Assembly: GCA_036172245.1 (NCBI GenBank)
Contig: JAYWIR010000001.1
Location: forward strand, 2,418,001 to 2,482,000
Source of the DNA: Raillietiella orientalis
Lineage: Eukaryota
Length of the DNA: 64,000 nucleotides
Reading direction: 5' to 3'
This document shows positions 14,617 through 46,974 of this stretch, piece after piece (positions within the stretch are counted from its first letter, which is position 1; each line of letters starts with the position of its first letter). Below the pieces are notes generated by a model that was not told the origin of the DNA, searched no databases, and was given only the letters and a program-made list of their open reading frames with translations. The translations under genes and the position numbers were made by a program.

Positions 14617-15751
14617 CCCGGTCACGCCGGGATGTTTATTAAATACAACAAGTTTGAAGGGATATGTATTCCTTCAAGAAACAAGAAACCCCAATACAAA
14701 AAGTTCAACCAGGATGACCGGCTTCGGAAAAGAAAGCAACAGAGGGAGGGGACTCAAAATAAATCAAAACAGTAGAAAGGCTAGGGACAGAAAAAAAGAG
14801 TGGGAGGGTACGGTAAGGAATCACTGTTGCTGCTGGGGCCATATCATCCTTCTCAGGATGCCGGCAAGCTCTTCTTGCATTCGCAGATCCAGGTGGGACC
14901 ATGGAGACGCCCTCTTCAGGAATTGGGCGGCACCCTGGATGGCATCCTTATTGCGTGGTCCTCCCATAGCCGTGCTCAATGCGGCGACGATCCCGCGAAG
15001 GCAGCACAAGGCTGCTATCGAGACCGCTGGTCGAAGGGCGTCGGCAACGAAGAGGGCTTTCCATGCATCCCTGGGGTTGCCGCAGGGGATTCCGATGGCC
15101 GCGGCAAAGCGGAACCAAAGGGGCTGAAGGGCAACACAATCCACTAGGAGGTGGGGGAGGGACTCGGACCCTCCCGTTGCCCCAAAGGGCGATACGGAGG
15201 AAGTCCTTCGTCCGCTTTTTGATCCTCTCTGTGGAGGGGACAAACAAAAGGCAGGGAACGGAGGAGAGGAGCCGCAAACGTGTTCCAAACTGCGGCCCGT
15301 TCTGGCAGGAAAAACCTGCCGCCTCGGAATGGGCAGATCGCTGTGTCTACTTTTTGGAGGCAGCCGGACCACGCTTCCGCAGGGGAATAGTCCCCCAACG
15401 GTACACCAAGGTACTTGAAGTACCTCACCGTGGGGATCCCCCACTCTGCTGCCCTGCCCATGCCGCACCAACTGGCATTACGGACGACTTCGCCCTGTTC
15501 ACCGTAAGTCTGGTTCCCCGATTCAGCAGGTCGAAGAACTCCTCGACCGCCGAAGCCGGGGTGGACATAGGGAGCAGCAGCAGAAGGTCGTCCGCGTACG
15601 CTGAAACCGCCAGCGTACCGGTGCAGTCGTGCGGCAGGTGCGCCAGAGTTTCCCTGTACGCCCTCAGTACCAACTCGAAGTAGGTACTGAAAAGCAACGG
15701 GTTTAAACTGTCGCCCTGCCGGATGTCCCTGCATACGGGAATACCGTACAC
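14617..15751 (-). mobile_element. L1/Tx1-like LINE 3' part: RT core, internal deletion, zinc knuckle, 3' UTR
   Basis: IRQGDSLNPLLF, AYADDL, FKYLGVPL and ESLPHLLVDC motifs. Ends with AATAAA plus a short hairpin. Confidence 0.9.
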
Positions 15752-16012
15752 ATGCCAAGCTCCTGTCCGGTAATGCCGGCAGTGGCAGCCTATGGCGACG
15801 ACCTGCCTCTCCTACTACCCATGTCCACCCCGGAGTCCAACCTCGAGGATTTCTTTGAGCTGATTCGTCGGGAAACGGGCATGAGCGTTAACAGGAGCAA
15901 GAGTGTAGTCGTTCTTGTATGTGCATCGTGGGCGGGGCAGTCCGACTGGATCCACCTGGGGATTCCGACGGCCAGGTGCTTCAAGTACCTTGACGTCCCG
16001 CTTGGTTCATGA
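15752..16012 (+). mobile_element. L1/Tx1-like RT fragment
   Basis: AYGDDLPLLLP...VNRSKS...FKYLDVPLG, paralogous to the adjacent minus-strand RT. Confidence 0.85.
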
Positions 16013-16949: not shown

Positions 16950-19900
16950 TCCTTATAGGTATCCGTTAGATGATCATTGGGTAAGGTTAAGAATAATTGT
17001 TTGAACTATTAAGTATTATTTTGTCAATCTTGGCCCACGACGATAGGGGTATAGTACGAAGAAGTAAGTCATGTACCGAGTATTGCAAGAAAAAGTATTT
17101 AATTGCGTCTAGTTTCTGCCACGGGGCTAAGGGGAAGTATGCAATATCTTGAAATGTGCAATGAACGTATCTACGTTTGCGTTATACATGAGAGGATCCA
17201 AAACAATTTCTTTTTAGGTAGTGGTACGTATCTTGAAGGGAAAGAGACGGAATTGGTACACCATTTACAGATGGCGGCAATTTCGCACTTGTGGAGGGGA
17301 GGCTACGTAGTCACACGGCCGCATTTATTGGAATCGACTTCTAATTTCGCAGCTCGGGTTGTATCTGAAAATGTGGTGATGGCAGGTTGTAGCTTATCTA
17401 TCGTGCTAGCTATAAGCGCAACATCATCTACATAAGCAAGTGAAATTTTGGAGGATTGGTGGTGTTTCAGGATTTTGATGAAGGATTCTAACGCGATGTC
17501 AAGTAACAGGCTACTTAGAGGCAACCTTGGTGCACTACGGAACGAATTGGTATTAGATTCGTAAGTCCATCCTAGGTCCCTATTGTTGTAGATCCCGAAT
17601 ACATTTCTGATATTATTCCATAATACTGATTACCAGCTCCTAGTAGGGTCAACTTGTCTAGACTGTGATAGTGGGGGATGGACGAAAACGAGTCTTCAAA
17701 GTCTACCTCCCAATGGCAACGTCTTGGTGGTGTAGCCGGAAAAGTTCAAGTACACTAATCAGGACAAAGTTTTTCTTCGACACACCATCATAAGTGATAA
17801 TCCTCCTTTTGATGGTGTTCAAGGATTCCCTTGTTGAGGATCCACGAGAGCAACCTGCTTGCTAGGATTTTGCACAATAGTTTGCCAATAGTGCTGGAGA
17901 TCGCAAAGGGGCGAAATTGTGCGACGTCTCTAGAGTCAATTGCTCCAGATTTAGGACTTGGAACTGTACGTGATATTTTCCAGTCGTTAGGACCTACAAG
18001 TGATGGACACACGTCGTACAGCGCTACAAGACAAGTTCCGTCTGGGTCTGCTTTCAGCAGGGAGTACTGGATTCCGTCATTTCCTGGGGCAGTGTCTTGA
18101 GAGTTCCGTAACGCAAACAGAACTTCTTGAGGAGTAATCTTTGAACAATTTACTCCCGAAGAAGCTGGGGTTAAAGGGCTTGACTTAAGTATCTTCGTGC
18201 CAATAGCCTTTGCTGAGAACTGTTCACTAGAAATGGTTTCAAGTATCGATCGAGAGCCGTTGAATTGGATCGGATTGGGTTGAAATGCGAATGGCTCGTT
18301 TTGGTTGCGTCGATGCAGGCTTTGAAGTAGTTTTGTTGAGGTTAAACGAGAGGCATTGGAGAAGGCAGTGGGTCTTGTATAGGGGTTTGAGGGGCTCATT
18401 TGGAATATCAAAGTTATTTGACACCCGGGTGCATCGGGGCGTTTATTTTAATAACGAACATGTGTGGAGCCATAGGCCCTACAACGTCCGAAAGAGTTCG
18501 GAACTTGCCGAGTCACCGGCATGCAGGCCGGAATATCGAAGTTATCGTATTCATAACTTAGTTGAGGATGGCGATGGTTCGTTACCAAGTGTCGTTAGAA
18601 GTCGCTTTTGTGAGAAGAGTTGTGATTTACGGGGATACAAGATGCAGGTTCGCTGGTTGTGTACAAAGTTTGCAGGGGAGTTGGATGTATCAGTGGTGTG
18701 TACTGTTGTAAGGCTTGGAGGGAGATGAGTATGATGGTGCTATTGAAAGTACTGGTCCTGTTGGGACACAAGCTGTTGTGAGCAAGGACTTCGTTGCTCC
18801 TAAGTTTGCAGTCGTGAGGGGTTCGGCTGTCGCTATCGCCTCGAGACGGCTGAATGTGAGTACTAGAAGAGGAGCGCAGGGCAGAATTGTTTTCTTACGT
18901 AGACTTTGCAGGAGCATATGCCATCGAGTAGGATTTTGTAATCCGCACATGGAGGGGAAAGTGTCCATACAGTTGGGAATGTTACATTGAAAGGTAAGGG
19001 ATATAAGGGGTACCGTGGGGGGTTCAGAGCTAGCGAGGTGTTTGAAGCATGGTGATGTGTGGGATAGGAGACATCAGAGTCGCATTTCCTACATAGTAAC
19101 CTATGCTTGTGGAAAGGAAGCTTGTGTGCTGTGTTTAAGGGGCGTTTAAGAGAGAGAAGTCTGTTGCTTGCATGGAGAGTTTGCGTTCGCCAGGAACGGG
19201 ATGGCAGTATGCAGCATAGCGTACGAGGTACGGGAAATGGAACCAGAAGGACGTTAGGTGTAAGGGATACATCACTGCTTGCAATGGGCAGAAATAGAAG
19301 GTTCATGATTGGAGAGGTAGTAGGACGGGTGGTGGTGGGTGGGGAGGTAGGATAGGTAGCAAGGGTACGATTGTAACTAAACATTCTCGATAAGATTGAC
19401 AGTCTAGGTGTTAATGGATTAGGATGATATTTTGGAGATTTTTGCACTGTCGAGATGTAGGGGACGAGGAAGCGGAAATCTTTGGTGGCTACATAGTAAA
19501 AGGTGGGACGGTTGAAACCAAAGGAAACAACCAAATTGTTTCCGAACTTTCAAGGAAAAAGAAAGTTCGGAAACAATTTGGTTAGTGTGCGGAACTATGT
19601 ACGGTGGGTAGTGAGCTCTGCACAGAGGAAGTTTCGCGTGATATTTCGACCGAAGAGGGAATCTTTCCAAGCGAATGGAGGAGGTACTTCCAGTTAATAA
19701 GGGGGAAGATGGTGGTATAAGAGAGGAGGGCGGTGAGGACGCATTAGGGGCCAGTATTCTCGTGTGTATGACGCGAGTGATTTTTGACATCAGCAAATGT
19801 CGGTGATGAAGAGGACAGGGTAGATATTAATCGAGGCAAAGCTAGTGATGATTGGGCATTATAATGACCTTCTAACGGGAGAGTGGAGAAGGCAAGGCAT

Positions 19901-20560
19901 TAGCGAATGACAGGATTTCAGGAGGCAAAAGTTTGAACACGTTTTGAGTTGTTGGAAAATAGAAATTGCATCTCGCAGTGCAGGCGAAACCTCAGAATGT
20001 GGTTTAGGCATCAAGGTGCTGTCAGATGGAAGTTGAGGGCTTTCTTTGGGCAATGATTGGAACAAGTGTGAAATTTTGAGTCGGGTTCTTCGTGAAAAAT
20101 TTCGTATGTTGACGGTTTCTGAGTTCTTAATGTCCCGTGCGTTCTCCGGTTGTGGGCTGAGCGGTGTCTTTTACGGTCAAAACTGGATGCACAAAACAAG
20201 CAAGGGTATTTAAGTTGTTTGAGGGGGGGGGAGGAAGTTCAACAGTTCGAATAGAGTGCGTACATTTGAGAGGCAGGGGAATAGTCGAACAGGTCACAAA
20301 GGCCAAAAGAGAGTTGGGTAGTGTCGCTATGTGTACGTGTAAGATGGTGTTTTAGGTTACGGAAAAGATTTTGCCTTTCTTGGGCTGAGGATGAGAATTT
20401 GCAGCTGGGAATAAGGCATGGGCAAGAAAGGGGAAGGAAAAATGCACAAATATAAACCACGGTCGGAGTCTAGAAATGCGGGTTCCAAAAATTTGCTTCC
20501 CAGCTTCCATTGTTTCAATGAGTTATAGCGCGTACAACACCAGGGCAGTGGGGAATTCTC
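16950..20560 (-). mobile_element. Decayed RLE-type (R2/NeSL/Utopia-like) non-LTR retrotransposon with multiple N-terminal zinc fingers
   Basis: RT motifs DTAPGNDGIQY, FRPFAISSTIGKLLCKILASRL, PLSSLLLDIALE and LAYVDDVALIA. N-terminal Cys/His fingers include FCASSFDRKRHRSAHNRRTH and NLKHHLTRTH. No APE domain; no restriction-like endonuclease recognised at the 3' end. Many frameshifts. Confidence 0.8.
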
Positions 20561-25960: not shown

Positions 25961-27589
25961 AGATCACTGATCTCCTGGAGTCGTATACCTAGTGGCATTG
26001 AACGATAATATTTTCTTCTCATGTAGAGTCAACAGCCCGTGCTCATTGGATTTAGACGAGGTGTTGTTTACATGGCAAGGGTTCAGCAAGGTTAACGTCA
26101 TTGCTGCTAAAGCAACCTAAATCCAAAATCTAAAAGTATATAACCAATGCTGCGCTGAAGAGTGCAGGCCTAAAAGTGTGTATCCAACGAATCTACTTAC
26201 GAGATGATTCGTACACTTTTTATTGGAGTCTCAACCTGCGTTCTTGTAACTCAAAAAAGAGTACATCACAGCGCACTGAAATACGCAGAGGTTATCAGCT
26301 TCATTTGGTTCAGCATGGAATGGTTCCGGAAGATAAATAAGATGAGGTGTACAGATCCTTGACGATCATAAATCGTACACAGATGACGGGTGCTTGTGGA
26401 TGTCAGAGGATTCTGCTTGAGAAGAAAACTGTACAGGAGGCCTCGTGCAGAAGAACGGTTCATGAGAGTGGTAATCGGTACGGCGATTTGCAGTTTCAAG
26501 GCTTCGCCTGTTTCAGTCGCAAAGAATGTGCAGCAGTGTTCCCACCCCCATGCAAAGCGCGCATTTTTCAGAAGAGTCGCCTCATGAAGACTTGATGCCG
26601 TACAGTTTCATCGAAAACTCCTGGGTGAAGCCAAATTTCGGCGAACCAAGCATGCCGTTGTGTATGGAAGAGCAAGAAGTATTCAAAATGTCATGGGGAA
26701 ATTCGGCGTATTCCAGCCTACCATGGCGGCTCTCGGTTTGCTTTCCGAAGATCTCTGAGCTTGTTAGCAGCACCGCCAAATCATTGACCAGACAGTGGCG
26801 ACCTGGTGACGTGCCCACAAGGATGCACTGTAGAGGGCATGACTTGTGAATTCGTCTTGAGCTGAAGCAGCCTGACGTTCACGGAAGGAGCAAATGCGTC
26901 GTGTCTTGCAAGGCTCATGCGGAACGGACCCACGAAACAGCAACGAAAGCGTGGAGCCTTTGTACACGGGAAAAAAGCTCCACATTTTTTCCCGTGTACA
27001 GCGGGAACGCTTCACAGAAGTCGGCAGGCTCTTCGAAGCAAATCGGGTCCAGAATCTTGCTGTCTTCTCCCCTGGAGATATGTTTGAGTTGCTTCAGAAA
27101 GTAGAATGTAACTAGCAGGCATTACGCGTTCATTTGGGATTCTGATGGCATCTCGGTTTTGCAGAAGGACAGAAAATCGAGGATCTCACTGCTGCTTCCT
27201 CGAAAATAACACGCAGATTTTTCACACCACATAGGAACTTGTGGTTTATAAATAAACTGATGAGAAGAAAGAATTAAAAATTTAGGATTCCATTCTTAGC
27301 TTTATTTTTGAAGTTGCTCGAATGGATGGTTTTCTAAATCTTCATGGAAAAATGAGAATCAATTTCTTTCATCACTATAAACTTTAATGTCCGTAGTATA
27401 AAAGTCGACTCATGGGGCTCCTAGTGGTTTCGGTCGACTTCTCCGTATTTGAAAGGGTTCCAGAATTTTCCGGAATCACGATAGAAATTTGCGTTTTCTT
27501 CATTTTACAATAAACATGCGTGTCGGCGGTTGCAGTGAGAGCTTCCGAGTTCATTCTGAGCGACCAGTTGCGCACTGTGCTCAGGTGAG

Positions 27590-28039
27590 TCATCAACATT
27601 GGACCTTCTTCACGCCAGGAGGCCTGTCGTTAGGTGCTGTTGCCGCAACGGTGTGCTGCATCCGCGCCATCGACAAGGCCCACCGACAGTTGGAGTCGCA
27701 GGCGATTCGTCGAGAGGCCACCGGAATAGCCGACGACGACATGACGTCGGCTTCCAGGTGGTCTCATCTTCCAGAAGACGCAAGGAAGGAGATCTCCGTC
27801 ATCCAACGCCGGTTCTGAAAAGAAGGAAGGCCAATACCAAAGACCCCTGTCCCCAGCCTTCCCCATATGTTTTTTTTTTAATGTTTTTTATATATTTACT
27901 CGTGGTTCCCTCCCTCCCTTTCCGGACTTTCGGTTTTACCGACTTGCGTGTCGGGGGGCCCTCCCATCGTTTTTCTGTACCCTTTGTCCGGAAACCTTGT
28001 TCGCGGATAGTTTAGTAATAAACGCCCCGGCGCACCCGG
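27590..28039 (+). mobile_element. L1/Tx1-like LINE 3' terminal fragment
   Basis: VAATVCCIRAI...RWSHL...EISVIQR resembles IAALCCLRGI...PWSHL...ELAGILR of the 14617 copy. Same AATAAA-hairpin terminus. Confidence 0.65.
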
Positions 28040-28939
28040 ATGAGGAACATTTGACCAGTGTAAGAAGCTCTTCTTGCCTTCTGCCTAAAAAGCCGAACCG
28101 CCGCTCGATTTTCCGCAGCCGTCTGCTTCTCGTTCCACTAACGACATTCTGATGTTCAAGAGTCCGCAAGTAAAATCAGCTTGTTGTGATTTCAAAGATG
28201 AGCATTTTGTCAGAGCCCTCGACTCACGGAAAAGCTTGTGAAGATATCGAAACTCTCAAAATGCTTCGAAGGCAGCTCCCCTGAGTCGTCAGCCAAAGAT
28301 CAACTGACGAGGGATTTCGAGTCGTCAACCTATTATGCTGCTCAGATGGAATCGGAACGCTTCTTCGAAGTTTTTGTAAAAGATATGGTTCGCCCGGTCT
28401 CAGAGCGAGGTCAGTAGGACAGCGGGATCCAGGTTTTTCTACTTCTCGAACTGGGATTCAGGCTGCGCGCGTCGCACCTTTTTCCTGCTGTAAGGGACGG
28501 GTTTGGTTCTTGCTGCAGGAGGCTCGCATTTTGGAAAATCTGCACATGTCTTTCGGTGCGACGTCAACGGTATGCCCAAATCTTCTCTAGGGTCCAAAAT
28601 TTACCTCCGTGTTTCACGTAAAAATGCTGCCACGCCTTCACTATGCCTCGACGTGTTTTTCTCCCTCTGCAGACTTGAGATCCGCGGATGGAGGCGGCTA
28701 AAGACCGACGGCTGCGTGCATGACGAAGAAACTTGGAGAAACAGGTCCGCTCCCATCGTGCGAGGGGAAATACGAAAAGGGAGGGGAATGTTGCTGCTGC
28801 AGAGAGAGCTCCTGCGGCTGTCGCGTCAGAAGTGAGAGTCTCTCTTTGCACACACGAGAGTCTGCAAGACCAGGCAAATAGCGAGTCCTCTCGTGACTAG
28901 AAAAAGAGCGTGGATTTCCCCATCTAGCATGTGCAACGC

Positions 28940-29640
28940 GCCACGTTTGCCGCTGTTCCCGTTCGAGGCACCATGGAATCGGATTATACTTTGCATATGA
29001 ATCGGAGGAATACTTGTGCTCGTGCTTGCAATGACAAGATGGACTCTTTCTTTGTCGTAAACTTGATGATGTTTGAAGTTTGAAGGTGCAGGGTTGCTGA
29101 ATGTCTAAGGAAACACAAAGCTCGTTCGTGTGAGGAAGATTCTCGAAACTGTTCACAGAATGTGCGCTTTGTTTTTTGGTCAGCTCCGAATCTGGAACCA
29201 CATTACTTGACCGCGCATCCGATGAAAAAGACTCTGCTCTTACGGTTTTCGTCCGCCTGAGAATTATTCTTGAGGCGCTTTTAGTATTCAGTGACAAATG
29301 CTTTGCAGGCTTCAAACACAAACCGTATCAAATGTTGGAAGTGTGCCGTGCACTCTGGTATGCAATAGGTCTCCACAACCCTCTATTATGGTGGACACGA
29401 TGAGCTTATGGGGCTACCGGTAGCGGCAACCAGTGCATTGCAGAGAATAAAAAGGTCCTCCGTTCTACTGCGCAGTGTCTTCAGGGGATGGAAGCTCAGC
29501 AAAGGGGGTCTGACTTAAGAGGAACAAAGAACTGTTCCAACCTCGAGATTGCATGGAAAAGCGTGTCCAAAACGGGGATTCAGGCAAGTTGAAAACTCTT
29601 CTGCAGTCTTCAGCAGCGGACTCTCTTCAGATTACAAGGG
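28940..29640 (+). mobile_element. Possible LTR-retrotransposon (BEL/Pao-like) integrase remnant
   Basis: Degenerate HHG...Y...RK zinc-binding-like region, then VFSDKCFAGF...W...NPLLWW resembling SDN...F...W...PWWGG. Stops present. Confidence 0.35.
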
Positions 29641-31346
29641 GAAAAATGTATGTGTAGCCATCAGAAGCTGGACGTTTAAAATTTAAAGAATGTTTTTTTA
29701 AATTTTTGTGCACGCAATATTGAGTATCCATTTGACATTATAGAAGATTTTATTGTGTAGCAGCCTCAACATACAGAGCATTTTATTATAAGCACGATTT
29801 GCTAGCAGTTTTGAAAGTTTCAATGTCTTAATTACATGAAGTATGAGCTTCCAGACAAAAGGGCTTTTTTTTTATAATTAATAATGAGTAAATAAAGAAT
29901 CGATTGCACTGAATAAATTCTGATAAAAGCCTTTTCGAATTGGGGAATGAATCTGTGGTGGAAAATGACTTAAAAGTGAAGTGCATCAAAGCTTCTGAAT
30001 ACCCTGATTTTCCAACAAGTTTGACCGCAAAGCGCGTCCTTGTTCTCTAGCCAAATCCATCTGCTGCATCATCCGATAAAAAATGAAAATTCATCGCAGA
30101 AAGGCCCGCAGGCCAGAAAATCATCCACTGATTAGGTCGAGGGGCGGACTCCGTCGATTCCCTCGCACTCAGCCATCTCAGCTTCAACCCAAATTGAATT
30201 GGGATTTCCTCATGCACGTCACACGAACACCGACAAAACCGAAAGTGTTTCCATGTCGCTATCCCTGAAAGTGTTTCCTTGATAGAGACATCTTTTTCGA
30301 TAGAACTGATGAATCGAAAAACACAAATAAGTCTAATGCTCATGAGCTCATTTCCCATTCGTGATTTGTCTCTCTCATTCTTCTATGGAATTTTCATCCA
30401 CGTTACTCTTCTGACCACTGTTATTCCTAAGAACTGTGAGAACTAAGAAACAGTTCTTTGCGAATAAAGTTTCCTTATTTGCAGACAACTGTTCCATATT
30501 CCGCGTCAATTTGCAAAGCAACTAAATTTGCAGATACACCAACATCTTGTGCACTTACTGTCCAATAAGGAGTTCTTTATGGAATCAACATCACCTCGGC
30601 TCTTCCTATCTACTTGCATGTTTCTTAGTTTTTTTCTCCCCTTCCTTCCTCATCGATTACATCCTTTAATGTTATTAAGGAATGCCGCAATTTCACTATG
30701 AGCTTTTACCTGTTCTGCTGATTGCTCCTTCACTATCAACGAGCACCCTTTCCTCGTGACAAAGCTGCTTCCTCTATTCATCATTTCATAATATTGCCAT
30801 CTCCATTCCAGCAATCCGCAGAGTCATCATATCCCTCATAATGGCATCATCCCCTTCTTTCTCCAGAGACTATTTATTTATTCCTCATATTGCAAATAGT
30901 CCATAATCAACTTATATATCAAGAGACAAATGCAGGTCTAGCCTTCAAGAGCCCTGTGTGATGTAATTCCCGTACAGCTGCAAGTGGAACAAACTACATA
31001 CAACCTATGGTTTGTAGGGCAGCCGCATGAGTGCGGCTAATGCCACATGATGAGGGATGCCAACAAGGAGAGGCACCAATGATGAGGTGTCCCTGGGTAC
31101 GGAGCGCAGGAGGAGGTGGAAAGAAGAAGGAAGAGCGAGCATGGGAGAATGAGGGAGAATTGAAAAGGGACCTCGGCAGTCGGAAGATTGCTCCTCGACT
31201 GCCGCTTTGTGGAGGATGCGTCTGGTTGCGACGTGTTTTCAAGCAACGCGCCGCCACTTTTCCCGGCTTTTCTCGCCTGACTTCCAGCCTTTTTTGGAGG
31301 AGTGGCCATAGAAGCCTCCGGAATGCACAACGGACTAATGTTGCCC

Positions 31347-31415
31347 GCGGAGGAGGCTTTGTGGTTAAGACTTCCGCGCGTGGCACCATGCGTCGCGGGT
31401 TCGAATACTTCGGCA
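31347..31415 (+). promoter_or_regulatory. tRNA-derived head with RNA Pol III type-2 internal promoter (SINE-like; tRNA-His-like)
   Basis: A-box-like AGGCTTTGTGG at 31354 and B-box GGTTCGAATAC at 31398 lie at +8 and +52 from 31347, which is tRNA geometry. GTGGTTA..ACT..GCG..GTGGC resembles tRNA-His. No intact acceptor stem. Confidence 0.5.
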
Positions 31416-31541
31416 GAAACTCTGATGCCACTGCGTCGTCGAGTTCCGAGTTTCTCCTGCAATGGCGCTGGTTGGCCTAATCATTCGGGCGTGGCACCGG
31501 TGGTGGATTAAGCCGGAGTTCCCTGATTCAGGCCGGAACAA

Positions 31542-32114
31542 TGGGAAATTGACCTTCGGGTCTTCCCAGGAATAAAGAAATAGGGAGTTCCCCCTCCGGT
31601 CGTGCAACGGAGAGCGGACTCCCCTCACCGAAGGGGCCCTCCGGTTTCAAGATGGAGCAGGGGCCCGCACGGGCACCTCACCAGTTGTTCAAAGGAGCGG
31701 ACCCCCCTGTTGGGGGGTCCCTCCGGGTCGTCTCCTCTTCACAGAGTGTGCACAAGGAAGCAAGCGAGAGCGATTCCCTGCGGGAAGCTGCAGCGCCCCT
31801 TCGGGGTTCTCTTCAGAGGAGTGAACAGGAGCGGTTCCCTTGCGAGTTCCCTCCGGAGAAGAAATTCCTACAAGCGGATCCTTTCCGGGTTCCCTTCGGA
31901 GAAGTTGAAATGGAGAGGACCACTACCCTCGCAAGGGGTGTCCCTCCGGAAAGAATAAGGAAGGGGGATTCCCTTCGGGGTTCCCCTTCGGAGACAACCA
32001 GGGTTGGAGGTGCGATCCCCCCCCGTCCGGGGTGGATCCCTCCCCAAGCGTGAGAGGAACGGACTCCGAGCCCTTCCTGGATTCATAGGGCGGACCACCA
32101 TTCCGGGGTGCCCT
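31542..32114 (+). repeat. Array of ~12 related GC-rich hairpins (GGAG-C-GGAY...TCC-CTCC-GG) separated by A-rich spacers
   Basis: Inverted repeats are directly visible, e.g. GGAGCGGACCCCCC-TGTT-GGGGGGTCCCTCC (31694-31724) and GAAGGGGGATTCCC-TTCG-GGGTTCCCCTTC (31960-31989). Confidence 0.85.
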
Positions 32115-32169
32115 CTATGCTGAAGAATTACATGCCCCCTGAGGGTTGCCGTGGGCGGAGATAAAAAAA

Positions 32170-32800
32170 AGGAGGGGGGCTGCGCTAGGAGAGGAAAGAG
32201 AGAGGAAACAATGGGTAAGAGGACTGGAAATGAGAAGGCAGAGCTAAGAAAGACAAGAAGGAATAAGGAGGAGTATGATAGAGATTAATGAAGGAAGAGG
32301 ATGAGCGTAGACGGGCAGAGGCAAACGAGATGGAGAGTCTGAATTAAAGCGATGTTGGAAACGGAGTAAAGTTAGGAGATGGATGAATAAAACAAAGGAA
32401 GGACGAGGAAAACACGTGGAAGGGCATGGAAAGGGCCGAAGGGAGATGTAGAAAACGGAAGGGATGAGGGGGAGTAGGAAAGGAGGACAGTTGCAGAAGC
32501 AGTAAGTGGATTTGAAAGAGAAAATAGAGTAGAGCAAGGAGGGAATTGGGAGAAAAAAACGAACTGGAGATGAATGAATAATCTAGAGGAAGTGATGAGG
32601 AAGATGATGATGATGATGACGAAGACTAGGAAGACGAGAAAAAGGAGATGGAGAAAAAAGAAAAAAGAAATAGCATGAGTTGGAAGGGTGAGGAAAGGTT
32701 GGAGAGAGGTACGGCTAGAAGAGAAAAACTGAAGCAAAAAGTGTGGGCATGAAGGGAAGATAGGAATAAGGAAAAAAATGAGGCCATAGGTGACATGGAA
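32170..32800. repeat. Purine-rich (GA) low-complexity tract
   Basis: Plus strand is almost devoid of C over about 600 bp. Confidence 0.85.
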
Positions 32801-32937
32801 TGAAGGGTATTTCGGGTACGCGAGCCTCTCGTTCTGGAAGAGGAGGAATATGTAACTTCATGAAGGACCACCGACGTCGCAAAGGCAGGAATTCTCCTCA
32901 CGGCTTGAAGTCGCGGCGAGCCACCGCGGGCACGTAC

Positions 32938-33628
32938 CTTCAAGAACCGAAAGGTCTTTGTTTTTTTCGATCCTGTTTGTCCTAGTTCTCTGGCGTTGTA
33001 TCCCCTGAATAGTCAACCCCGCTTCCGCTACTTTGCTTTTCCGGCCAGCCGTCAGGACTGTAGTTTCTCCAAGTCGGTGGCCAATCCGCGTCAAGTCGAC
33101 GGCATGAAGGCTTCCCAGAAACTTTTCGAACTCTCTGAAATCCACGTCCATGTCTTCCTCAACACGCTGCTCCCTCGCTACCTCGTCGGAGAGGAAGCTC
33201 ACGATCAAATTGAGCTCGTCGCTGCCACTCACAAACTGCCTGTGGCCACCTCGCGGTTCCTCGCCACGTAGCGAGAAGGCGACAATTTGAGTCTTCAAAT
33301 CTTCAGAGGTGTCCGAGGAGCGCTTCAACTGTTATGTCCCTGTCTTGCAGAGCGATCTCGAATTACCCCTCACTCTCCTCAAGAGTGCCAGCAGCAACTC
33401 CGGCTCCTCTTGCACCCTGCGAACGAGATCTTTGATCTGGGCGCCACTCAAGTCGCAAACGCAGCGCAGCAGCGTCGACAGGGCTTCCGGTTCCCAAGCC
33501 GACGACAAGCGCGCGCACCGCTGCTCGGTTGCCAGAGCTGTTGCACTGCTCTGCCACTGGTGTTCCAGGGGACGTACTTCGGGAGACGGCCCACAACCGT
33601 CTCCGCATCGGTCCCTTCCAAACTGGCG
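32938..33628 (-). CDS. Putative exons of an unknown gene or pseudogene
   Basis: Frames 33374-33628 (...EPELLLALLRR) and 32938-33328 (LKRSSDTSEDLKTQ...) join in phase across a 45-nt GT-AG intron (33329-33373). Flanking exons are unresolved. Confidence 0.4.
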
Positions 33629-34439
33629 CTGAGACGGAAGCGGAATTGCACCATGCTTACTTTCATCACCCGCCCTTCCTGATCTCACCTATTCCTACTC
33701 CGTGATGCAAAACGGACTGTCCTGGAAAACGCGGGACGCTCGCTACTGGGCGCACACCTCTGCGCACGGCTCGACTGGAGGCGAAGCTGCTGCGGGTGTA
33801 CTGCGCTTCTGTGACCTCCCACCTCCAAATCGCTGTCCATCCACCGGTGCACCGTCATCAGACTTAAAGAGAGACCAAGAGTTTTATGTACATCCGGCCT
33901 TTCATCTTGGCTTTAGATCCTCTGCCGCGTTGTTCTAATCATCCAAGTCTTCTGGCTATCCGGTTCTTGAAACGTTGCGTCCGCTGCAACTTCCGCTCCT
34001 GGTTGCGAACGTCACCTGTCGGAATTTCCTTCTTCCTTGTTACTTAGAACACCTGGATGTTGTCGATCTCCTTGCCTATTGTCCATTGTCTGTGCAGAGC
34101 CATCATTTCGTGAAGATTCCAACGTATCTCTGAGAAATTTCTCTTTCGAATGAAACCAGATAAACTGCAGCGTTTCCATGGTTTCCTTTACCCTCAGAAA
34201 AACTCGAGAACGAATAGATGTGATCCTCGATGCGTTTCTTTCTACCTGCCCCCGCAATGGTGATTTCTCCTGGGCGGTTTTCCGCCGCCACCCTTCCTTC
34301 CCGGCGACAAATGGCGGTTCCATGAAATCTTCTCTGGGCCTGGGATTTGAACATCTCGATGTCTTTCTTTCCAGTTCTGTTCGGTATCAATGTGGCTCTT
34401 CCCATTCATATTTGCAGATTGTGACTAGCATATGACCAT

Positions 34440-34940
34440 GAACACTGATAAGTATACATTCATGCGTCTACGTATACATACATATGTATGTATGTATTTA
34501 AAAAAATGATACTGATAATAATAATGCATTTGTATTCTGAATTAAATATTTCTTTGCAGGGGCCCATATACGGACAGATATAATTGTGCATATATGAATG
34601 TTATGGGCATATCGATATATATACATAGATGCATGTTTTCCTATGTGTATGTATAAGAAGGGGCACAAATATTTTTGTTATAGAAGCCAATATATATGGA
34701 TATCAAGATTCATAGTGAAATGAATGAATATACATGTTCGTTTTTAGATGTATGAATTGATCAAAGTCGGTTTACATATGCGGATGGAAACGTATGTATA
34801 CAGTACTTTGCAAATTGCACGTTTCGATGCGAATATGTATGTGCGTATATCGATATTCACAGTTTGTAATTCAATTGTCTTTTTATTCATGAAGGTATAT
34901 GTATACCTTGCTATGAACATAGCTGCCATGATGAGAAGAT
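34440..34940. repeat. AT-rich TA/TG low-complexity region
   Basis: Many atat/tatg/atac microrepeats, including the palindromic atacatacatatgtatgtat. Confidence 0.6.
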
Positions 34941-35749
34941 ACACTGTCGCGGAAATGTGCATGTCGATTGGAATGTGTGCTGATCGATGCTCCTATCTGT
35001 TTCTCGGCTTCCCATACCTTTTCCATTCCTAGGAGTGAAACGAATGAACACACGCATTTCCGTTGTTTGATGTTTGGCGATGTTTCTCGTTCTGAGTTTG
35101 GATGAGCAGCGGCATGGCTGCCTCTGGCACGCGAGGCGCGCCGCTGCCTCCACGGAGCCACTTTGCAGGTCGCGGCGCTGGTGCTTCCGCGATTGCCATT
35201 GCGGCGCTCTTTGCCGTGTTCGCAGTGTTTTCACTCGTGTTCTACGCGCTCCGGCGGCTCGGAGAGCGTCTGGAGACGCAGACTTCGATTCGGGTAAGAA
35301 GAGGAGGAAGTGCGCAATCCGCTCGTCGCGTACGATCGGAATGAAGAGTACGTCACGAATTGTAGAAAGTGACACAAGTGATACATCGATATGGAGAAGA
35401 CACGGGAGCATTGCAGATAGCTTCGTGCTGGGATGGACGATCAAGAAGACGCTCGAGCAAACAGCGCGGATAGTACGTCCGGAGCAGAGCAGTTGAAGAG
35501 GTCTCGAAAAAGCTGCAGCTGTCTCTCTTTCGGCTGTTGCTGGAAAACAAGAGGTGGCCATGTCAGGCGGAGTACATTGCAAGCTTGTTCGACTTCCGAA
35601 CACAGAACAGGGAGAAGTCGTTCCGGAAGTTAGAAACGAGATAATAGATCTACAGAATACGGAACTGCCTCCAACAACCTTCACCTGTTCAGCCTGGAAG
35701 ATGATAATTAATTATTAGCACGCGCACCCGCTTTAGTGAGGCTGGCAAC

Positions 35750-36200
35750 TAGATGGATTACATACTCTTTGCCTGCGCGCCTACAGGTGGGGCCGCTTTC
35801 GCCAGTAAACGATGCGCCGGTTCCTGGAGCATATAAAATGGGACTGTCTAGGATGCACGGAGGTCTTCTGCGAGAACTACGTCACTTGTAGTGAAACGAA
35901 CTTAAATGCTGAAGTCATCCCCGAGCACAAAGTCAGCATGGCTGGCTCTTCAGTGTTGGAAATGAGACTGCAAAACATTGGCGTTGATCTCGATCGAGAT
36001 TTTGATGGGTTCGACACGATGTTTTGCGGCGGTGGTTTGTGTATGGTTGCCACCAGCCAACGCGAAGCAGATGCTTAAACCAAGTGGGAGATGCAATCTC
36101 GTGGGGAGCAGTCTGCAAGCCTCCTTCTACTTGTCCGGATCACGAGACAAAGTGATGAGGGCTTCTTTCTCATGTTAACCTAAGTTGGGACTGGTGAATC
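35750..36200 (+). mobile_element. Possible LINE APE endonuclease remnant
   Basis: IKWDCLGCTEV (cf. WDILGLSEV) and VVCVWLPP (cf. xxxVYxPP) in shifted frames. Confidence 0.3.
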
Positions 36201-39200
36201 TCCGGACCGGGAGAATGAGAAACCATTGAAGAATGGTTAGTTTGGATGGAAGAGTGATCTCATCAAGGGTACCTCGCTGCGGGGAATTGCATCCTCGATC
36301 TGTTTCCGGCGCGGGACCGTCAAAGCTCACCCGGTGTGGTGCAGTTCCTTGGAATCCTCGAAAGCATTTGAACGAATTTCATGATACCAATTTTTGCTGC
36401 CTTCCTCAAAATACAGCACAAGAAGCACCGTTATTCTGAAAATTGCTAAGAAACAGAAGCTCACAGTGCGCATCAATCTACACAATCCTAAATGAAGTAA
36501 CCTTAGTTATCCCAGCTGCACTGCGAATGAACTGTTCCTTTCTTGCTTGCTGCACGTGTCTTTTGGATGTCTGCGGTTACTGCTTTGAAACCTCCATGGA
36601 AAAGTTCCCGCAGACTCGATAACACCGCCTCGGAATTCTCTTTGTTCTCCACCATTCATCTATTCGCTCTACCCCTCTTGAATTTGCGAGCCCAGCACTG
36701 CCACTTCACATTCTTTACCATCCACAACAGATCGCGATCCGGAGCCAAGCGGAGAACTCATGACGATGCAACACTCCACAAAAGGAATCTCGTTTGCTTC
36801 TGCATCATCTGCGCTTGCGTTGCGAACTGAGTGATGACGTCTTTGTGACACAACTCATCGTCATTCCTGTCGTACTTTCTTTACTCACACAGTCACTGCA
36901 CACTGCCATCGGAGAAACTTTGCTGGGCAGCACTGCAAAAAGTTCGAGGTGCTATTTTCGAAAGAGCACCATTAGAACTGAATCTTCCACTTAGTCTTCC
37001 ATGCAGGGGAAGCGTCGATATCATGCTGACAGAACCTTTGTAAAAAAAAATGGATGGCAACACTGTGCAAGCACCGAGGAACTTTTGGCTTTCATCTGCG
37101 AACCTGAGCAGGTTTTCTAAGTCCATTGCAGAGATTTGAACTGAGGAGCCTTTCGGTTAATCATTCTTTGCTGCCTTTCCTAATGACATGCTCTGCACAA
37201 TTTTCCTCTTCCACGGAAAACATCAATGCAGCTTTTGTGAAACGCCGACACATCGAACTCACCCCCAATCGTTCCAACAACATCCGTTTTCTGAAGTGAA
37301 AATTATGCCTTTTCAGATTTCTGTTTTTCCTGTTGGGCATCAAAGAGTTCCAGCAAACATGGATCGCCAGTTTCCACACGCCCCTCGGATACCACCCACA
37401 AGTGGACCGCTCTGTATTCTTCTGCCTCTGCATTTCAATCCTAGCTTGGATTATTCTCAAGGGTGCTTTGTCTGATCCTCCGTTACATCAAGCACTCTTA
37501 GATAGAAGTAGCAAAGGAATGTTGTTGCTACTTGAAAAGGGTGTGGATGTCATTTTGGGAAACCAAGAGCGTCACAGTCCTTTGTATTCATTTGCCTCCT
37601 GGGAGACTTGTTCGGATTCCATTCAAATCCATGTGCTTACCTTTATCGCTTCTGGATGTAGGTTGTTCCTCAAAGTGAACGTTAGGTAAGTTCGGAATAC
37701 TATGAAGGTGAGTTTCCAATAAAAAAGTTCTCAATAAATTGTTCCCCTTACTTATAGAGACATGTGTTTATTCACCTGTGTACACCATCTGGTTCTTATT
37801 TTATGCTCTCTGTGCTCCTACACCACTTCGGCGATTTTTCATTCCCTATTGGGTCATAGGATAAGAGAAAACTCCACCTTGGGGGGTGGGAATCATCCAC
37901 CTTGCATGGTTTTTTGATGAGATCACATCGTTTGTATGAATAATAAGCCTGATCTGGTTATAGATATATATCACTATTTTGTACATGAGAGAGAGAGAGA
38001 TCTCGTTATCTGTATTCAAGGATGAAAAGGCAGGGTAATTCATCAAAACGAATATTTGCAATTAGAATATGCTCATTTCTCAATGATAAATAATATTCTT
38101 CCCGAATTAATACAATAACTTTTTTCTGTACACCGAGCCCGCAAGTAACATCTATTCTTTTTCCTTGTAGACAGGCATTCGTTAGGGAATGCGAAATGAA
38201 AAATGCAACTGCATAGTAGAAGGCATTTAAAGGATCTTTTCCTCCAATTACTCCTTGATTTTCAGTCCTTGATGTGGGATCCCTGCACAATGGAAGATGC
38301 CTTCTCATAAGACAGTATGTACATCTTCAGCGCCCCGTTTTTCTTTCTCTTCGAGTGATTTGGAAAAACTGCTTGAAAATCACTTTCACGTTGACAGTTC
38401 AAATAATGACAACCATAATTTTAAGAATGTTACATTGTGACATTACAGTACACTGTGACATTGTGACATTTTTATAGTGTGACATTACTACATAGTGACA
38501 TTTTAGTATAGTCTTTTGGAATAGAAACCAGTTGCACTTTTTGCCAAGTTCGTTGGGGTATGTTCAGCTTGGAAATATTGCTATATTCCTGATTCTCTGT
38601 TTCCAACAGCTTCCATTGGAGCTTGGCGTCCAAGAGGAAGTGCACTATGAGATGTTTATTTAGAGCATTTTCTAACCGTCTGATAGCTTGGTGCGCTGAA
38701 CGTTGACCAATTTAATAAGTTTGACCTTCACGAAAATGAAGTCGGAGTACGATCCATAACATGGTGGTCTTTCAAAATAACATTTGTATTTCCAATTTGT
38801 ATAGTACGAATAGTAGTTTTGAAAATCTTTTCACGGAGACAAATGAAAATACAGTCGTGAGCCCTGATGGGCTTAAGCAGCTTTTTTTTTTTGGTGTTTC
38901 TCAGGGCAACGGCGGTAGTGAATAGCCAACACTTACGGGAATGCCTAGCAGGAGGAGTGTCTCCTGACTCTAGGGAAACGTGAAGACTCTGTAAATTTCG
39001 CTGGTTTCGTTCAGTCTTTGCTGCTGAGAGTAAAATGGCCGTCCTGATTGATGAATCCAATGAAAAGAGAGTTAGAAAAAGTTAGAAAAACACCAAAGGG
39101 CTTTTTCAACCCTCACGTTACAAATGAAAGTGAACGCGCGTGGACGCGTGTGCCCTGTGGCGCATGGCATAGCACACACGGGAATGCACGTTTAAAACGA

Positions 39201-46431: not shown

Positions 46432-46518
46432 GTACCTGCTTCGGCAGTACATATACTAAAGTTGGAATGATACAGAGAAGATAAGCATGGCCCCTGCGCA
46501 AGAATGACATGAAGCATC
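46432..46518 (+). pseudogene. U6: U6 snRNA pseudogene (retrocopy, 3'-defective)
   Basis: GTACCTGCTTCGGCAGTACATATACTAAAGTTGGAATGATACAGAGAAGATAAGCATGGCCCCTGCGCAAGAATGACA matches metazoan U6, including the ACAGAGA box and AGC triad. It has substitutions, lacks the 3' end and oligo-T, and has no evident upstream promoter. Confidence 0.93.
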
Positions 46519-46974
46519 TGGATCCAACTCACATAGGCCCAACCAATCAGGAATGTGGGGAAGGATGCAGCTTGAAAGTTATCACTGATCTCACCAATGG
46601 AAAGCATGCAGCTGACATCCCCCTCACCAAAACTTTGCAAGGAAGTATTTCCACAGGGCACCAACGGAAATGTCCTGCAACACAGCTAGAATGATGAAAC
46701 CTTTAAGCTAGTGGGTAATCAAGGATAATAATCAATCAAGGGTAATAAAATCGGTAATAATTTGCGCATCAGATATTTACTAATTTGGAAACACATCATG
46801 GGAAAAAAAAACAGTATTTACTGTATTTTAATTTGGACTGTGGCTACTCATGTTTGACATTTTTTGTTTAGAGCAAACCCAACTTTCACAACCTATTGCT
46901 ACCAACTCAATCACAGATTTAGTTCATAGGTAGTATTTATATGCAGATCACTCATTGGAACTTCAAAGGCATAT

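What the first reader, a model, noticed from the sequence alone, without database searches (positions are those of the whole stretch)
31347..32170. tRNA-headed Pol III-type unit carrying an array of ~12 related hairpins and an A tract: candidate new structured RNA or SINE
Seen: A/B boxes at exact tRNA spacing (31354, 31398). About 130 bp later come ~12 hairpins every ~40-50 nt (e.g. 31542-31568, 31608-31643, 31653-31683, 31694-31724, 31828-31854, 31872-31898, 31912-31947, 31960-31989, 32006-32043, 32087-32114), then ATAAAAAAAA at 32161-32170. The hairpins share an outer GGAG/CTCC (or GAAG/CTTC) stem, often a bulged C, and several cTTCGg loops. Primary sequence diverges while pairing persists, and imperfect pairs are often G-T on the plus strand. 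I see no TTTT (Pol III terminator) inside the unit, although several lie just upstream (31230-31295). Known: cUUCGg is an ultrastable RNA tetraloop, and tRNA head + body + A tail is SINE architecture. Inference: a plus-strand multivalent RNA (protein sponge/scaffold or small-RNA precursor) or a mobile SINE with an unusual body. The link between head and array is by proximity only.
Basis: partly seen in the sequence, partly recalled or inferred. Interest (0 to 1): 0.85.

Follow-up and report, generated by a model that had tools for sequence, protein, structure and literature searches.

The report
Repeat element with hairpin minisatellite body
This stretch is one worn copy of a roughly 0.8-kb repeated DNA element from an arthropod-like animal genome, whose body is a degenerate run of about 43-bp GC-rich palindromic units; it looks like ordinary repeat DNA, not a new structured RNA gene.

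Summary
The hairpins, the shared GGAG...CTCCGG motif, the A8 run and the lack of TTTT are all in the sequence. CCCTCCGG occurs 6 times in the window, 5 of them here. A unit profile finds 8-9 related units about 43 nt apart and none elsewhere in the window.

The proposed interpretation holds up less well:
- **tRNA head:** at noise level.
- **Strand bias:** the ten listed hairpins fold equally well on both strands, -152.4 against -153.9 kcal/mol.
- **Covariation:** the units show none.
- **Whole-array fold:** no better than shuffles.

A public DNA run that also holds a 270-nt contig identical to the window (run X1) piles many 80-95% alike contigs on about 31354-32120 only. These contigs differ in unit number. 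Putting the family's majority letters into five units strengthens all five hairpins, so this copy has decayed from a more palindromic master.

Best reading: a non-autonomous interspersed repeat, SINE-like at most, with an internal minisatellite. No target-site duplication, terminal inverted repeats, RNA data or genome were available to settle how it moves.

The parts
31347..31420 (+). 5' end region of the repeat family, holding the A-box-like motif (31354-31364) and the B-box-like motif (31398-31408). It was proposed as a tRNA head but is not recognisably tRNA.
   Evidence: Sequence. One X1 contig (record 5) matches 31354-31496 and then runs on unlike to the left. ARAGORN finds 0 tRNAs. Rfam gives no tRNA at E <= 10. 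Box pairs are at chance frequency. Relaxed ARAGORN is at noise level. The fold has z = -1.16.
31421..31541 (+). Non-repetitive linker between the head and the array. It is also multi-copy in run X1.
   Evidence: 4-5 contigs with summed depth 28-35 lie at 31426-31481. An 11-nt inverted repeat sits at 31415-31425 / 31445-31455. The fold is no better than shuffles.
31542..31568 (.). Isolated hairpin with a cTTCGg loop, in front of the array.
   Evidence: -12.0 kcal/mol with z = -2.82 on the + strand; -11.1 with z = -2.61 on the - strand.
31578..32121 (.). Degenerate minisatellite of about 12 unit positions, with a period near 43 nt. The unit consensus is roughly GGAG-C-GGAYYCCC / loop / GGGRTYCC-CTCCGG, followed by a purine-rich spacer. 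Each unit is a quasi-palindrome.
   Evidence: Alignments A1 and A2. Motif enrichment. Profile and covariance-model hits lie only here. Hairpin statistics. X1 contigs skip 52, 108, 119, 177 or 221 nt inside 31819-32043, which is unit-number variation.
31610..31648 (+). Unit U2
   Evidence: Covariance model 33.8 bits.
31693..31730 (+). Unit U4, the strongest hairpin (31694-31724).
   Evidence: Covariance model 43.9 bits. -28.2 kcal/mol, z = -4.96 on +; -27.6, z = -5.03 on -.
31827..31861 (+). Unit U6. The hairpin has decayed in this copy.
   Evidence: Covariance model 32.7 bits. -6.6 kcal/mol here. A31845 is G in most X1 contigs (depth 59.5 of 68.1), which gives -13.5.
31870..31904 (+). Unit U7. 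The hairpin has decayed in this copy.
   Evidence: Covariance model 29.0 bits. 84% identical to U6 over 32 nt. The majority letters at 31871 and 31872 restore the outer GGAG.
31911..31953 (+). Unit U8
   Evidence: Covariance model 34.8 bits. -16.5 kcal/mol, z = -2.09.
31961..31995 (+). Unit U9. It is made of two 13-nt half-repeats, GGGGATTCCCTTC and GGGGTTCCCCTTC.
   Evidence: Covariance model 28.4 bits. Direct repeat D2. -20.3 kcal/mol on + against -14.1 on -.
32008..32049 (+). Unit U10
   Evidence: Covariance model 24.1 bits. -22.2 kcal/mol on +, -23.5 on -.
32055..32083 (+). Unit U11, weak and degenerate.
   Evidence: Covariance model 15.5 bits, E = 0.11.
32086..32121 (+). Unit U12, the last unit.
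   Evidence: Covariance model 27.3 bits. An X1 contig (record 8) matches 31967-32118.
32161..32170 (+). ATAAAAAAAA, a short A run at or near the 3' edge of the repeat family.
   Evidence: Sequence. The bin depths fit cover ending near 32120-32170; this boundary is an inference.

Best explanation
31347-32170 is one old, decayed copy of a multi-copy repeat family about 0.8 kb long, in an arthropod-like animal genome that has no annotation.

The element has three parts:
- a unique 5' part of about 190 bp;
- a body that is a degenerate minisatellite of about 12 GC-rich quasi-palindromic units, each about 43 bp;
- a short A run.

The hairpins come from the dyad symmetry of the repeat unit. That symmetry was stronger in the family's master sequence and reads equally on both strands. 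The units had already diverged from one another before the family spread. Later slippage changed the unit number from copy to copy.

The most likely way it spread is as a non-autonomous retroposon of the SINE type. It would be transcribed from the + strand and copied by a LINE reverse transcriptase. That step is inferred, not shown.

My odds: a multi-copy repeat with an internal minisatellite, about 0.8. SINE-type retroposition specifically, about 0.35.
For: Multi-copy family:
- 124 contigs of DNA run X1 were laid on 26000-38000 at 80% likeness or more. By likeness they split 2 / 9 / 39 / 74 into the classes 99+, 95-99, 90-95 and under 90.
- They pile on bins 31213-32415 (summed depth 13-37, up to 14 contigs at one site) and on 27604-28004. 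The other bins are near 0.
- One 270-nt contig is identical to 29071-29340, so the same organism or a very close one is in the run.

Edges:
- Record 5 matches 31354-31496 and runs on unlike beyond 31354.
- The bin means 19.9 and 13.1 fit cover of about 31354 to 32120-32170 (inference).

Age of the array:
- Contigs align over 138-154 nt across three or more distinct units at about 81-89% (records 6-8).
- The units themselves share only 61% mean column identity.

Unit-number variation: joints skip 52-221 nt, and one goes back by a unit (tables 5 and 5c).

A real unit family confined to this locus.

Decay of this copy:
- The majority letters of the X1 contigs strengthen 5 of 5 tested hairpins on both strands.
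- Random sets of the same number of changes reach those energies in 26, 11, 109, 1 and 24 of 1000 trials.

Not coding:
- Unit spacing is not a multiple of 3, and all six frames are open.
- There are no protein relatives.

Points that fit a retroposon:
- An A8 run sits at the 3' edge.
- A/B-like boxes lie 8 and 52 nt from the 5' edge.
- There is no TTTT in 824 nt.
- Decayed reverse-transcriptase fragments lie in the same window.
Against: - No target-site duplication; the best flank repeat is an 8-mer at 31296 / 32267.
- The head is not tRNA-like beyond noise, and box pairs of this quality are at chance frequency.
- At 824 bp it is long for a SINE.
- There is no second copy in the 64-kb window, and no similarity to the reverse-transcriptase-bearing stretches of the window.
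- Copy number, dispersal and the link between head and array rest on one low-coverage run of short contigs. Only 8 of the 140 pieces were listed, and none that bridges head and array was shown.
- A dispersed monomer of an 0.8-kb satellite would give the same picture.
- No RNA data exist here.
Confidence: 0.55

Rival explanations
1. It is a family of minisatellite or satellite DNA, not a transposon. On this reading an 0.8-kb monomer, or a GC-rich palindromic minisatellite with its flank, was spread by segmental duplication or through extrachromosomal circles. This locus would be a solo monomer.
For: - Degenerate tandem units with unit-number variation among copies.
- Dyad symmetry that reads equally on both strands.
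- No target-site duplication and no terminal inverted repeats.
- A head that is not recognisably tRNA.
Against: - There is a single copy in the window, flanked by unrelated sequence.
- The repeated stretch includes about 190 bp of non-tandem 5' sequence and ends at an A run.
- No contig joint listed links the 3' end back to the 5' end (table 5). Only part of the rows were listed.
Confidence: 0.2
2. The locus would be a Pol III gene for a plus-strand multivalent structured RNA, acting as a protein sponge, a scaffold or a small-RNA precursor, with a tRNA-like promoter head.
For: - Local hairpins are denser than in shuffles and than in most real GC-rich windows.
- There is no TTTT in 824 nt (34 of 1000 shuffles).
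- Three cUUCGg loops are present.
- Summed sliding-window energy is somewhat better on the + strand, -198 against -177.
- The two arms of a unit match each other better than arms of other units (25 of 20000 permutations).
Against: - No covariation among units.
- The arm-matching signal is equally strong on the - strand (5 of 20000).
- The ten hairpins fold equally on both strands.
- The whole-array fold has z = -1.18.
- No Rfam family matches.
- The head is at noise level as a tRNA.
- The sequence is multi-copy at 80-95% likeness, and this copy has lost pairs relative to the family majority. A decaying repeat copy would do that; a conserved gene would not.
Confidence: 0.07
3. The array is a cluster of binding sites for a dimeric DNA-binding protein, carried by a repeat. 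The palindromic GGGRNWYYCC-type sites resemble Rel/NF-kappaB sites. On this reading it acts as an enhancer or insulator.
For: GGGRNWYYCC occurs 8 times (both strands) in 31500-32170, against a mean of 1.3 in 500 shuffles, none of which reached 8. The whole window holds 20. The palindromes read alike on both strands. The consensus motif is recalled from memory, not taken from a tool.
Against: - The enrichment follows directly from the repeated unit and G-run/C-run composition.
- Only about 4 distinct sites exist (31583, 31963/31964, 31977), counted on both strands.
- No binding or expression data exist.
- The copy is decaying relative to the family majority.
Confidence: 0.04

Closest known systems
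tRNA-derived SINEs of invertebrates (head, body, tail; Pol III A and B boxes)
   Same: - Multi-copy.
- The 5' edge lies a few bases before an A-box-like motif, with a B-box-like motif 44 nt on.
- A-run at the 3' edge.
- No TTTT inside.
- Non-coding.
   Different: - tRNA detectors do not recognise the head above noise.
- No target-site duplication.
- 824 bp is longer than usual (size range recalled from memory).
- The body is a hairpin minisatellite, not a unique or CORE-type domain.
- No partner LINE tail was identified.
VNTR-composite retrotransposons of hominoids (SVA, LAVA, PVA, FVA)
   Same: - A non-autonomous element with a SINE-like 5' part, a central domain of 30-50-bp GC-rich repeat units, and a 3' A tail.
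- Unit arrays that are ordered, conserved between copies, and remodelled in number at the DNA level. This comes from passages of PMC4432496 read; compare here.
   Different: - Those families are hominoid-specific and built from Alu-like, SINE-R and L1 pieces, none of which is present here.
- Their units are not described as palindromic in the passages I read.
- This is a resemblance in how it works, not membership.
Transposon-borne internal tandem repeats that seed satellites (for example the Tetris foldback element of Drosophila virilis, or SINE-derived satellites in reptiles)
   Same: A mobile or dispersed element that carries an internal array of short tandem units whose number varies. The papers were seen only as search listings and abstract starts: PMC4079207 and PMC10702118.
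   Different: No terminal inverted repeats or foldback ends were found here. No long satellite array of these units lies in the window.
Quasi-palindromes perfected by template switching during replication
   Same: Within units, the arms match their own partner better than arms of other units, on both strands alike. That is what a DNA-level arm-homogenising process would give. PMC8794818 and PMC5453318 were seen only as search listings and abstract starts.
   Different: Selection on hairpins in the master element would give the same pattern.

Membership tests
tRNA-derived SINE | 5' part derived from a tRNA and recognisable by tRNA models | tested here: not met
   ARAGORN at default settings finds 0 tRNAs in the window. 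Rfam gives no tRNA match at E <= 10 in 30800-32700 or 31320-31520. ARAGORN calls 31339-31420 only at 85% of its thresholds, where the window gives 7 calls and 20 block-shuffled windows give a mean of 5.8 (range 1-11).
tRNA-derived SINE | Internal Pol III A and B boxes at tRNA spacing | tested here: inconclusive
   Both boxes are present with 2 mismatches each, 44 nt apart. Pairs of that quality occur 9 times in the window against a mean of 10.6 in shuffles. Their position at the 5' edge of the family is suggestive. The box consensus sequences are recalled from memory.
tRNA-derived SINE | Many copies in the genome | tested here: met
   Up to 14 distinct contigs, 80-95% alike, lie at one site in DNA run X1, while the single-copy flanks are almost uncovered. 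This rests on one run.
tRNA-derived SINE | Copies interspersed, each with its own flanks and target-site duplication | tested here: not met
   This copy has no flanking direct repeat of 9 nt or more. Dispersal of the other copies is not testable, because no genome is held. 67% of what was laid runs on unlike, which fits either differing flanks or divergence.
tRNA-derived SINE | A-rich or simple-repeat 3' tail | tested here: met
   An A8 run lies at 32163-32170, near where cover by family contigs ends. It is short.
tRNA-derived SINE | Pol III transcript from the + strand | not testable with these tools
   No RNA run was listed for this stretch.
Minisatellite / VNTR | Head-to-tail units of about 10-100 bp with recognisable common descent | tested here: met
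   8 units plus 1 weak one are found by nhmmer and by the covariance model, at a spacing of 39-50 nt or multiples of that. U6 and U7 are 84% identical. Tandem Repeats Finder misses the array because the units are only about 61% alike.
Minisatellite / VNTR | Unit number varies between copies or alleles | tested here: met
   Contig joints skip 52, 108, 119, 177 and 221 nt inside the array, and one steps back from 31869 to 31836.
Conserved structured RNA (any Rfam family or a new one) | Match to a curated family, or covariation that supports the helices | tested here: not met
   No Rfam match. 72.5% of cells are paired against 71.7% in shuffles (230 of 500 reach it). The covariation score is 0.175 against 0.156 (136 of 500). 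Slid registers give 69-70%.
Conserved structured RNA (any Rfam family or a new one) | Structure specific to the transcribed strand | tested here: not met
   The ten hairpins sum to -152.4 (+) against -153.9 (-) kcal/mol. Eleven hairpins average -14.52 against -14.47.
VNTR-composite retrotransposon (SVA-like) | Alu-like 5' domain, SINE-R or L1-derived 3' domain, hominoid host | tested here: not met
   The host is arthropod-like: the KDM5 exon is at most 59% identical to decapod and insect proteins. There is no such domain here. Only the GC-rich 30-50-bp VNTR architecture is shared.
DNA transposon / MITE / foldback element | Terminal inverted repeats | tested here: not met
   No inverted repeat joins the two ends of 30900-32600. 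Only internal unit-to-unit pairs were found.

The most novel reading that the evidence does not exclude
The family is a Pol III-type, SINE-like retroposon whose whole body is an ordered array of ten or more different strong hairpins. Those hairpins would be kept paired in the master element by selection, for example for RNA stability, packaging, or recognition by the partner reverse transcriptase. That would make it an invertebrate counterpart of the hominoid VNTR-composite retrotransposons, with palindromic units.

Three observations leave this open:
- The arms match within units.
- The family majority is more palindromic than this copy.
- The 5' edge falls at A/B-like boxes.
Probability: 0.15. 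Interest if true: 0.55.

Novelty: new member of a known kind. Interest (0 to 1): 0.3.

Why it matters
As it stands, this is repeat annotation. It adds an unclassified 0.8-kb interspersed repeat, with a palindromic GC-rich minisatellite body, in a poorly studied arthropod-like genome. It also warns that GC-rich palindromic repeats imitate arrays of RNA hairpins.

It would matter more if the hairpins are kept paired in the active master element. The family could then show how internal VNTR domains serve non-autonomous retroposons, or how replication template switching keeps palindromes perfect.

Tried and rejected
- **Whole genome:** none is held.
- **RNA evidence:** no RNA holder was listed, only one DNA run with a word share of 0.04.
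- **Metagenome scan:** a two-unit pattern gave 4 loci (L001-L004) with GC 0.57-0.70 and no blastn similarity to 31101-32400 at E <= 0.01. These are chance hits.
- **Second copy in the window:** none by blastn.
- **Tandem Repeats Finder:** misses the array.
- **Rfam:** only sub-threshold noise here, such as sR2, sR12, bxd_2 and EBER1.
- **Coding reading:**
  - The 166-aa open frame at 31553-32053 has no relative among 804 word-sharing candidates.
  - Against 1.84 billion representatives it gave only 2 hits, at 1e-5 and 1e-4. Checked for the better one, the match is a repeated 51-aa stretch of a 2224-aa protein at 33% identity, which I judged spurious.
- **Pfam on nearby open frames:** nothing in 21 of the 25 frames tried. 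Only the KDM5 exon and two reverse-transcriptase fragments matched.
- **Target-site duplication and terminal inverted repeats:** none found.
- **Bacterial-type promoter and terminator scan:** uninformative.
- **First arm-swap test:** discounted, because its hairpins were picked and split by their own folds. It was repeated on the 8 aligned units.
- **kappaB-like motif enrichment:** kept only as a low-odds rival, because it follows from the unit consensus.
- **Literature:** searches listed no arthropod SINE with a hairpin-VNTR body. I judged this from listings and abstract starts only.
Full report
**Context**

The window is animal DNA.
- A 742-aa open frame at 59908-62136 (-) is a KDM5 histone demethylase exon. 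It carries JmjC, PLU-1, zf-C5HC2 and PHD domains and scores 688 bits to human KDM5A.
- Its best full-length relatives are decapod, insect and chelicerate proteins at no more than 59% identity. A Priapulus protein has the top bit score.
- So the host is an arthropod-like ecdysozoan with no annotated close relative.
- CpG observed/expected is 0.83 for the whole window.
- The neighbourhood is poor in recognisable genes. 21 of the 25 open frames tried had no Pfam family.
- It does hold decayed retroelement pieces: RVT_1 fragments at 15428-15811 (-) and 17306-17599 (-).

**What is in the sequence**

- A-box-like AGGCTTTGTGG lies at 31354 and B-box-like GGTTCGAATAC at 31398.
- A run of GC-rich hairpins spans 31542-32114.
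- ATAAAAAAAA lies at 32161-32170.
- TTTT is absent from 31347-32170, while T runs lie at 31236-31294.
- The shared motif is far beyond chance. Of 6 CCCTCCGG in 64 kb, 5 are in 31500-32170. Of 8 CCCTTCGG, 4 are there.

Aligning the units gives a consensus close to GGAG-C-GGAYYCCC, a loop, GGGRTYCC-CTCCGG, then a purine-rich spacer.
- A profile HMM and a covariance model built from 8 units find those 8, plus a weak ninth at 32055-32083. The only other hits in the array are two on the minus strand.
- Outside the array, no hit in the window is better than E = 1.4.
- Unit starts are 39-50 nt apart or multiples of that, giving about 12 unit positions.
- So this is a degenerate minisatellite of quasi-palindromic units. 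It is too diverged for Tandem Repeats Finder, at 61% mean column identity.

**Are the hairpins more than chance?** Partly.
- The whole array folds no better than dinucleotide shuffles, with z = -1.18 on + and -0.79 on -.
- The number of local hairpins at or below -12 kcal/mol is 10 on +, against 9.1 +/- 1.3 in 60 shuffles.
- Strong hairpins (at or below -18) number 6, against 3.1 +/- 1.0 with a maximum of 5.
- Summed energy is -198, against -153 +/- 19 with a minimum of -204.
- Compared with 42 real windows of GC 0.52 or more from the same 64 kb, the array ranks at the top together with 14801-15871.
Two are weak, at -6.6 and -6.9 kcal/mol.

**Strand and covariation**

- The ten hairpins sum to -152.4 kcal/mol on + and -153.9 on -. 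Eleven hairpins average -14.52 against -14.47.
- Only U9 (31960-31989) clearly prefers the + strand. U2 and U6 prefer the - strand. The proposed plus-strand G-T bias is therefore not general.
- On the 8-unit MAFFT alignment with a 10-pair consensus helix, 72.5% of cells pair against 71.7% after shuffling partners (230 of 500 shuffles reach it).
- The covariation score is 0.175 against 0.156 (136 of 500). Sliding the partner by 1-2 columns still gives 69-70% pairing.
- So there is no covariation signal, and the G-run/C-run composition pairs in several registers.

A different test does show that the two arms of a unit belong together.
- Joining each 5' half to its own 3' half gives -16.85 kcal/mol on average, against -13.75 for foreign halves (25 of 20000 permutations).
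- The minus strand gives the same result: -16.29 against -13.13 (5 of 20000).
- This dyad symmetry is a property of the DNA duplex, or of either transcript. It is not specific to one RNA strand.

**The head**

- ARAGORN finds no tRNA in the window.
- Rfam reports no tRNA match even at E <= 10 when only 201 nt are searched.
- A/B-box pairs with up to 2 mismatches per box at 30-60 nt spacing occur 9 times in the window, against a mean of 10.6 in 30 block shuffles.
- ARAGORN calls 31339-31420 only when its thresholds are lowered to 85%. At that setting the window gives 7 calls and shuffled windows give a mean of 5.8.
- The fold of 31340-31425 has z = -1.16 and is not a cloverleaf.
- By itself, the head is not evidence of a tRNA origin.

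**The decisive new evidence: it is a multi-copy family**

Only one public run shares words with 31000-32400. It is DNA run X1, with a share of 0.04, and no RNA run was listed. I laid its contigs on 26000-38000 at 80% likeness or more, and 124 contigs were placed.
- 2 were 99% or more alike, 9 were 95-99%, 39 were 90-95%, and 74 were under 90%.
- One 270-nt contig is identical to 29071-29340, so the same organism or a very close one is in the run at low coverage.
- Most of the 12 kb is uncovered.
- Contigs pile on 31213-32415, with bin means 19.9, 36.9 and 13.1 and up to 14 contigs over one site. A separate stretch at 27604-28004 is also covered.
- Record 5 matches 31354-31496 and continues unlike to the left of 31354.
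- Given site depths of about 30 in the linker and 15-60 near 32000-32100, the bin means fit cover from about 31354 to about 32120-32170.
- Records 6-8 align over 138-154 nt across three or more different units at about 81-89%, while units are only about 61% alike to each other. The heterogeneous array therefore existed before the family spread.
- Joints skipping 52, 108, 119, 177 and 221 nt, and one stepping back a unit, show later gain and loss of units.

**This copy has decayed**

Table 3 lists sites where most family contigs carry another letter. I put those majority letters into the five units they fall in (15 sites in all, 13 of them inside the five units).
- Every hairpin became stronger on both strands.
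- On the + strand: U2 -13.9 to -18.3, U6 -6.6 to -13.5, U7 -7.4 to -10.6, U8 -16.5 to -21.1, U12 -12.4 to -16.1.
- Random sets of the same number of changes reach those energies in 26, 11, 109, 1 and 24 of 1000 trials.
- Caveats: the U8 letters come from a single contig, insertions and deletions were ignored, and the variants need not sit in the same copies.
- The master sequence was more palindromic, and this locus is losing pairs. A neutral repeat copy would behave this way; a conserved RNA gene would not.

**What it most likely is**

It is a non-autonomous interspersed repeat with an internal minisatellite. Among the ways it could spread, a SINE-type retroposon fits best.
- The 5' edge of the family falls a few bases before the A-box-like motif.
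- The 3' edge falls at an A run.
- There is no TTTT in 824 nt (34 of 1000 shuffles).
- There are no terminal inverted repeats.
- Reverse-transcriptase-bearing elements are present in the genome.

Against that reading:
- There is no target-site duplication.
- The head is not tRNA-like.
- The element is long for a SINE.
- It has no tail similarity to the retroelement pieces in the window.

A solo monomer of an 0.8-kb satellite is the main rival. A coding reading is excluded by the unit spacing, by open frames on all six frames, and by the lack of protein relatives.

**Comparison with known systems**

- In architecture it works most like the hominoid VNTR-composite retrotransposons. Those have a SINE-like 5' part, ordered arrays of 30-50-bp GC-rich units remodelled at the DNA level, and a poly(A) tail (passages of PMC4432496). 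It shares none of their component sequences and none of their host range.
- Transposon-borne internal repeats that seed satellites are a further parallel. I saw PMC4079207 and PMC10702118 only as listings.
- The arm-matching on both strands is what replication template switching between quasi-palindrome arms would produce. I saw PMC8794818 and PMC5453318 only as listings and abstract starts. No such event is shown here.

**Verdict**

The structured-RNA interpretation is not supported. The mobile-repeat interpretation is supported in its general form. Interest is modest.

Noticed in passing
window 46432-46538 (+): A U6 snRNA match (78.7 bits, full model length). By eye the 3' third departs from what I recall of U6, and no T run follows. 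It may be a U6 pseudogene or retro-copy.
   Followed up: partly
window 15428-15811 (-) and 17306-17599 (-): Two reverse-transcriptase (RVT_1) fragments, each at E about 2e-7. The first carries a YADD motif, and the surrounding frames are broken. These are decayed retroelement copies. The stretch 14801-15871 is also as rich in hairpins as the array.
   Followed up: partly
window 27604-28004: A second, unrelated stretch that is multi-copy in run X1. Several contigs are about 83% alike, and joints skip 84-87 nt. It contains a T10 run at 27872-27881 and a GGTTCCCTCCC motif at 27905. One contig joins 28037 to 31390, but only 20 letters lie on the shorter side, so I treated that as unreliable.
   Followed up: no
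window 31087-31170 and 32171-32800: Purine-rich low-complexity sequence on the + strand flanks the element on both sides. It includes a (TGA)n / GAGGAAGATGAT array at 32586-32619. The element may have inserted into this tract, or the tract may be part of a larger unit.
   Followed up: no
window 59908-62136 (-): A single 742-aa exon of a KDM5 (lid-type) histone demethylase. It is at most 59% identical to any annotated protein listed, which points to a lineage with no annotated close relative.
   Followed up: partly
window 18001-20000: Very high GC skew (0.37) over 2 kb, which marks a G-rich strand-biased tract.
   Followed up: no
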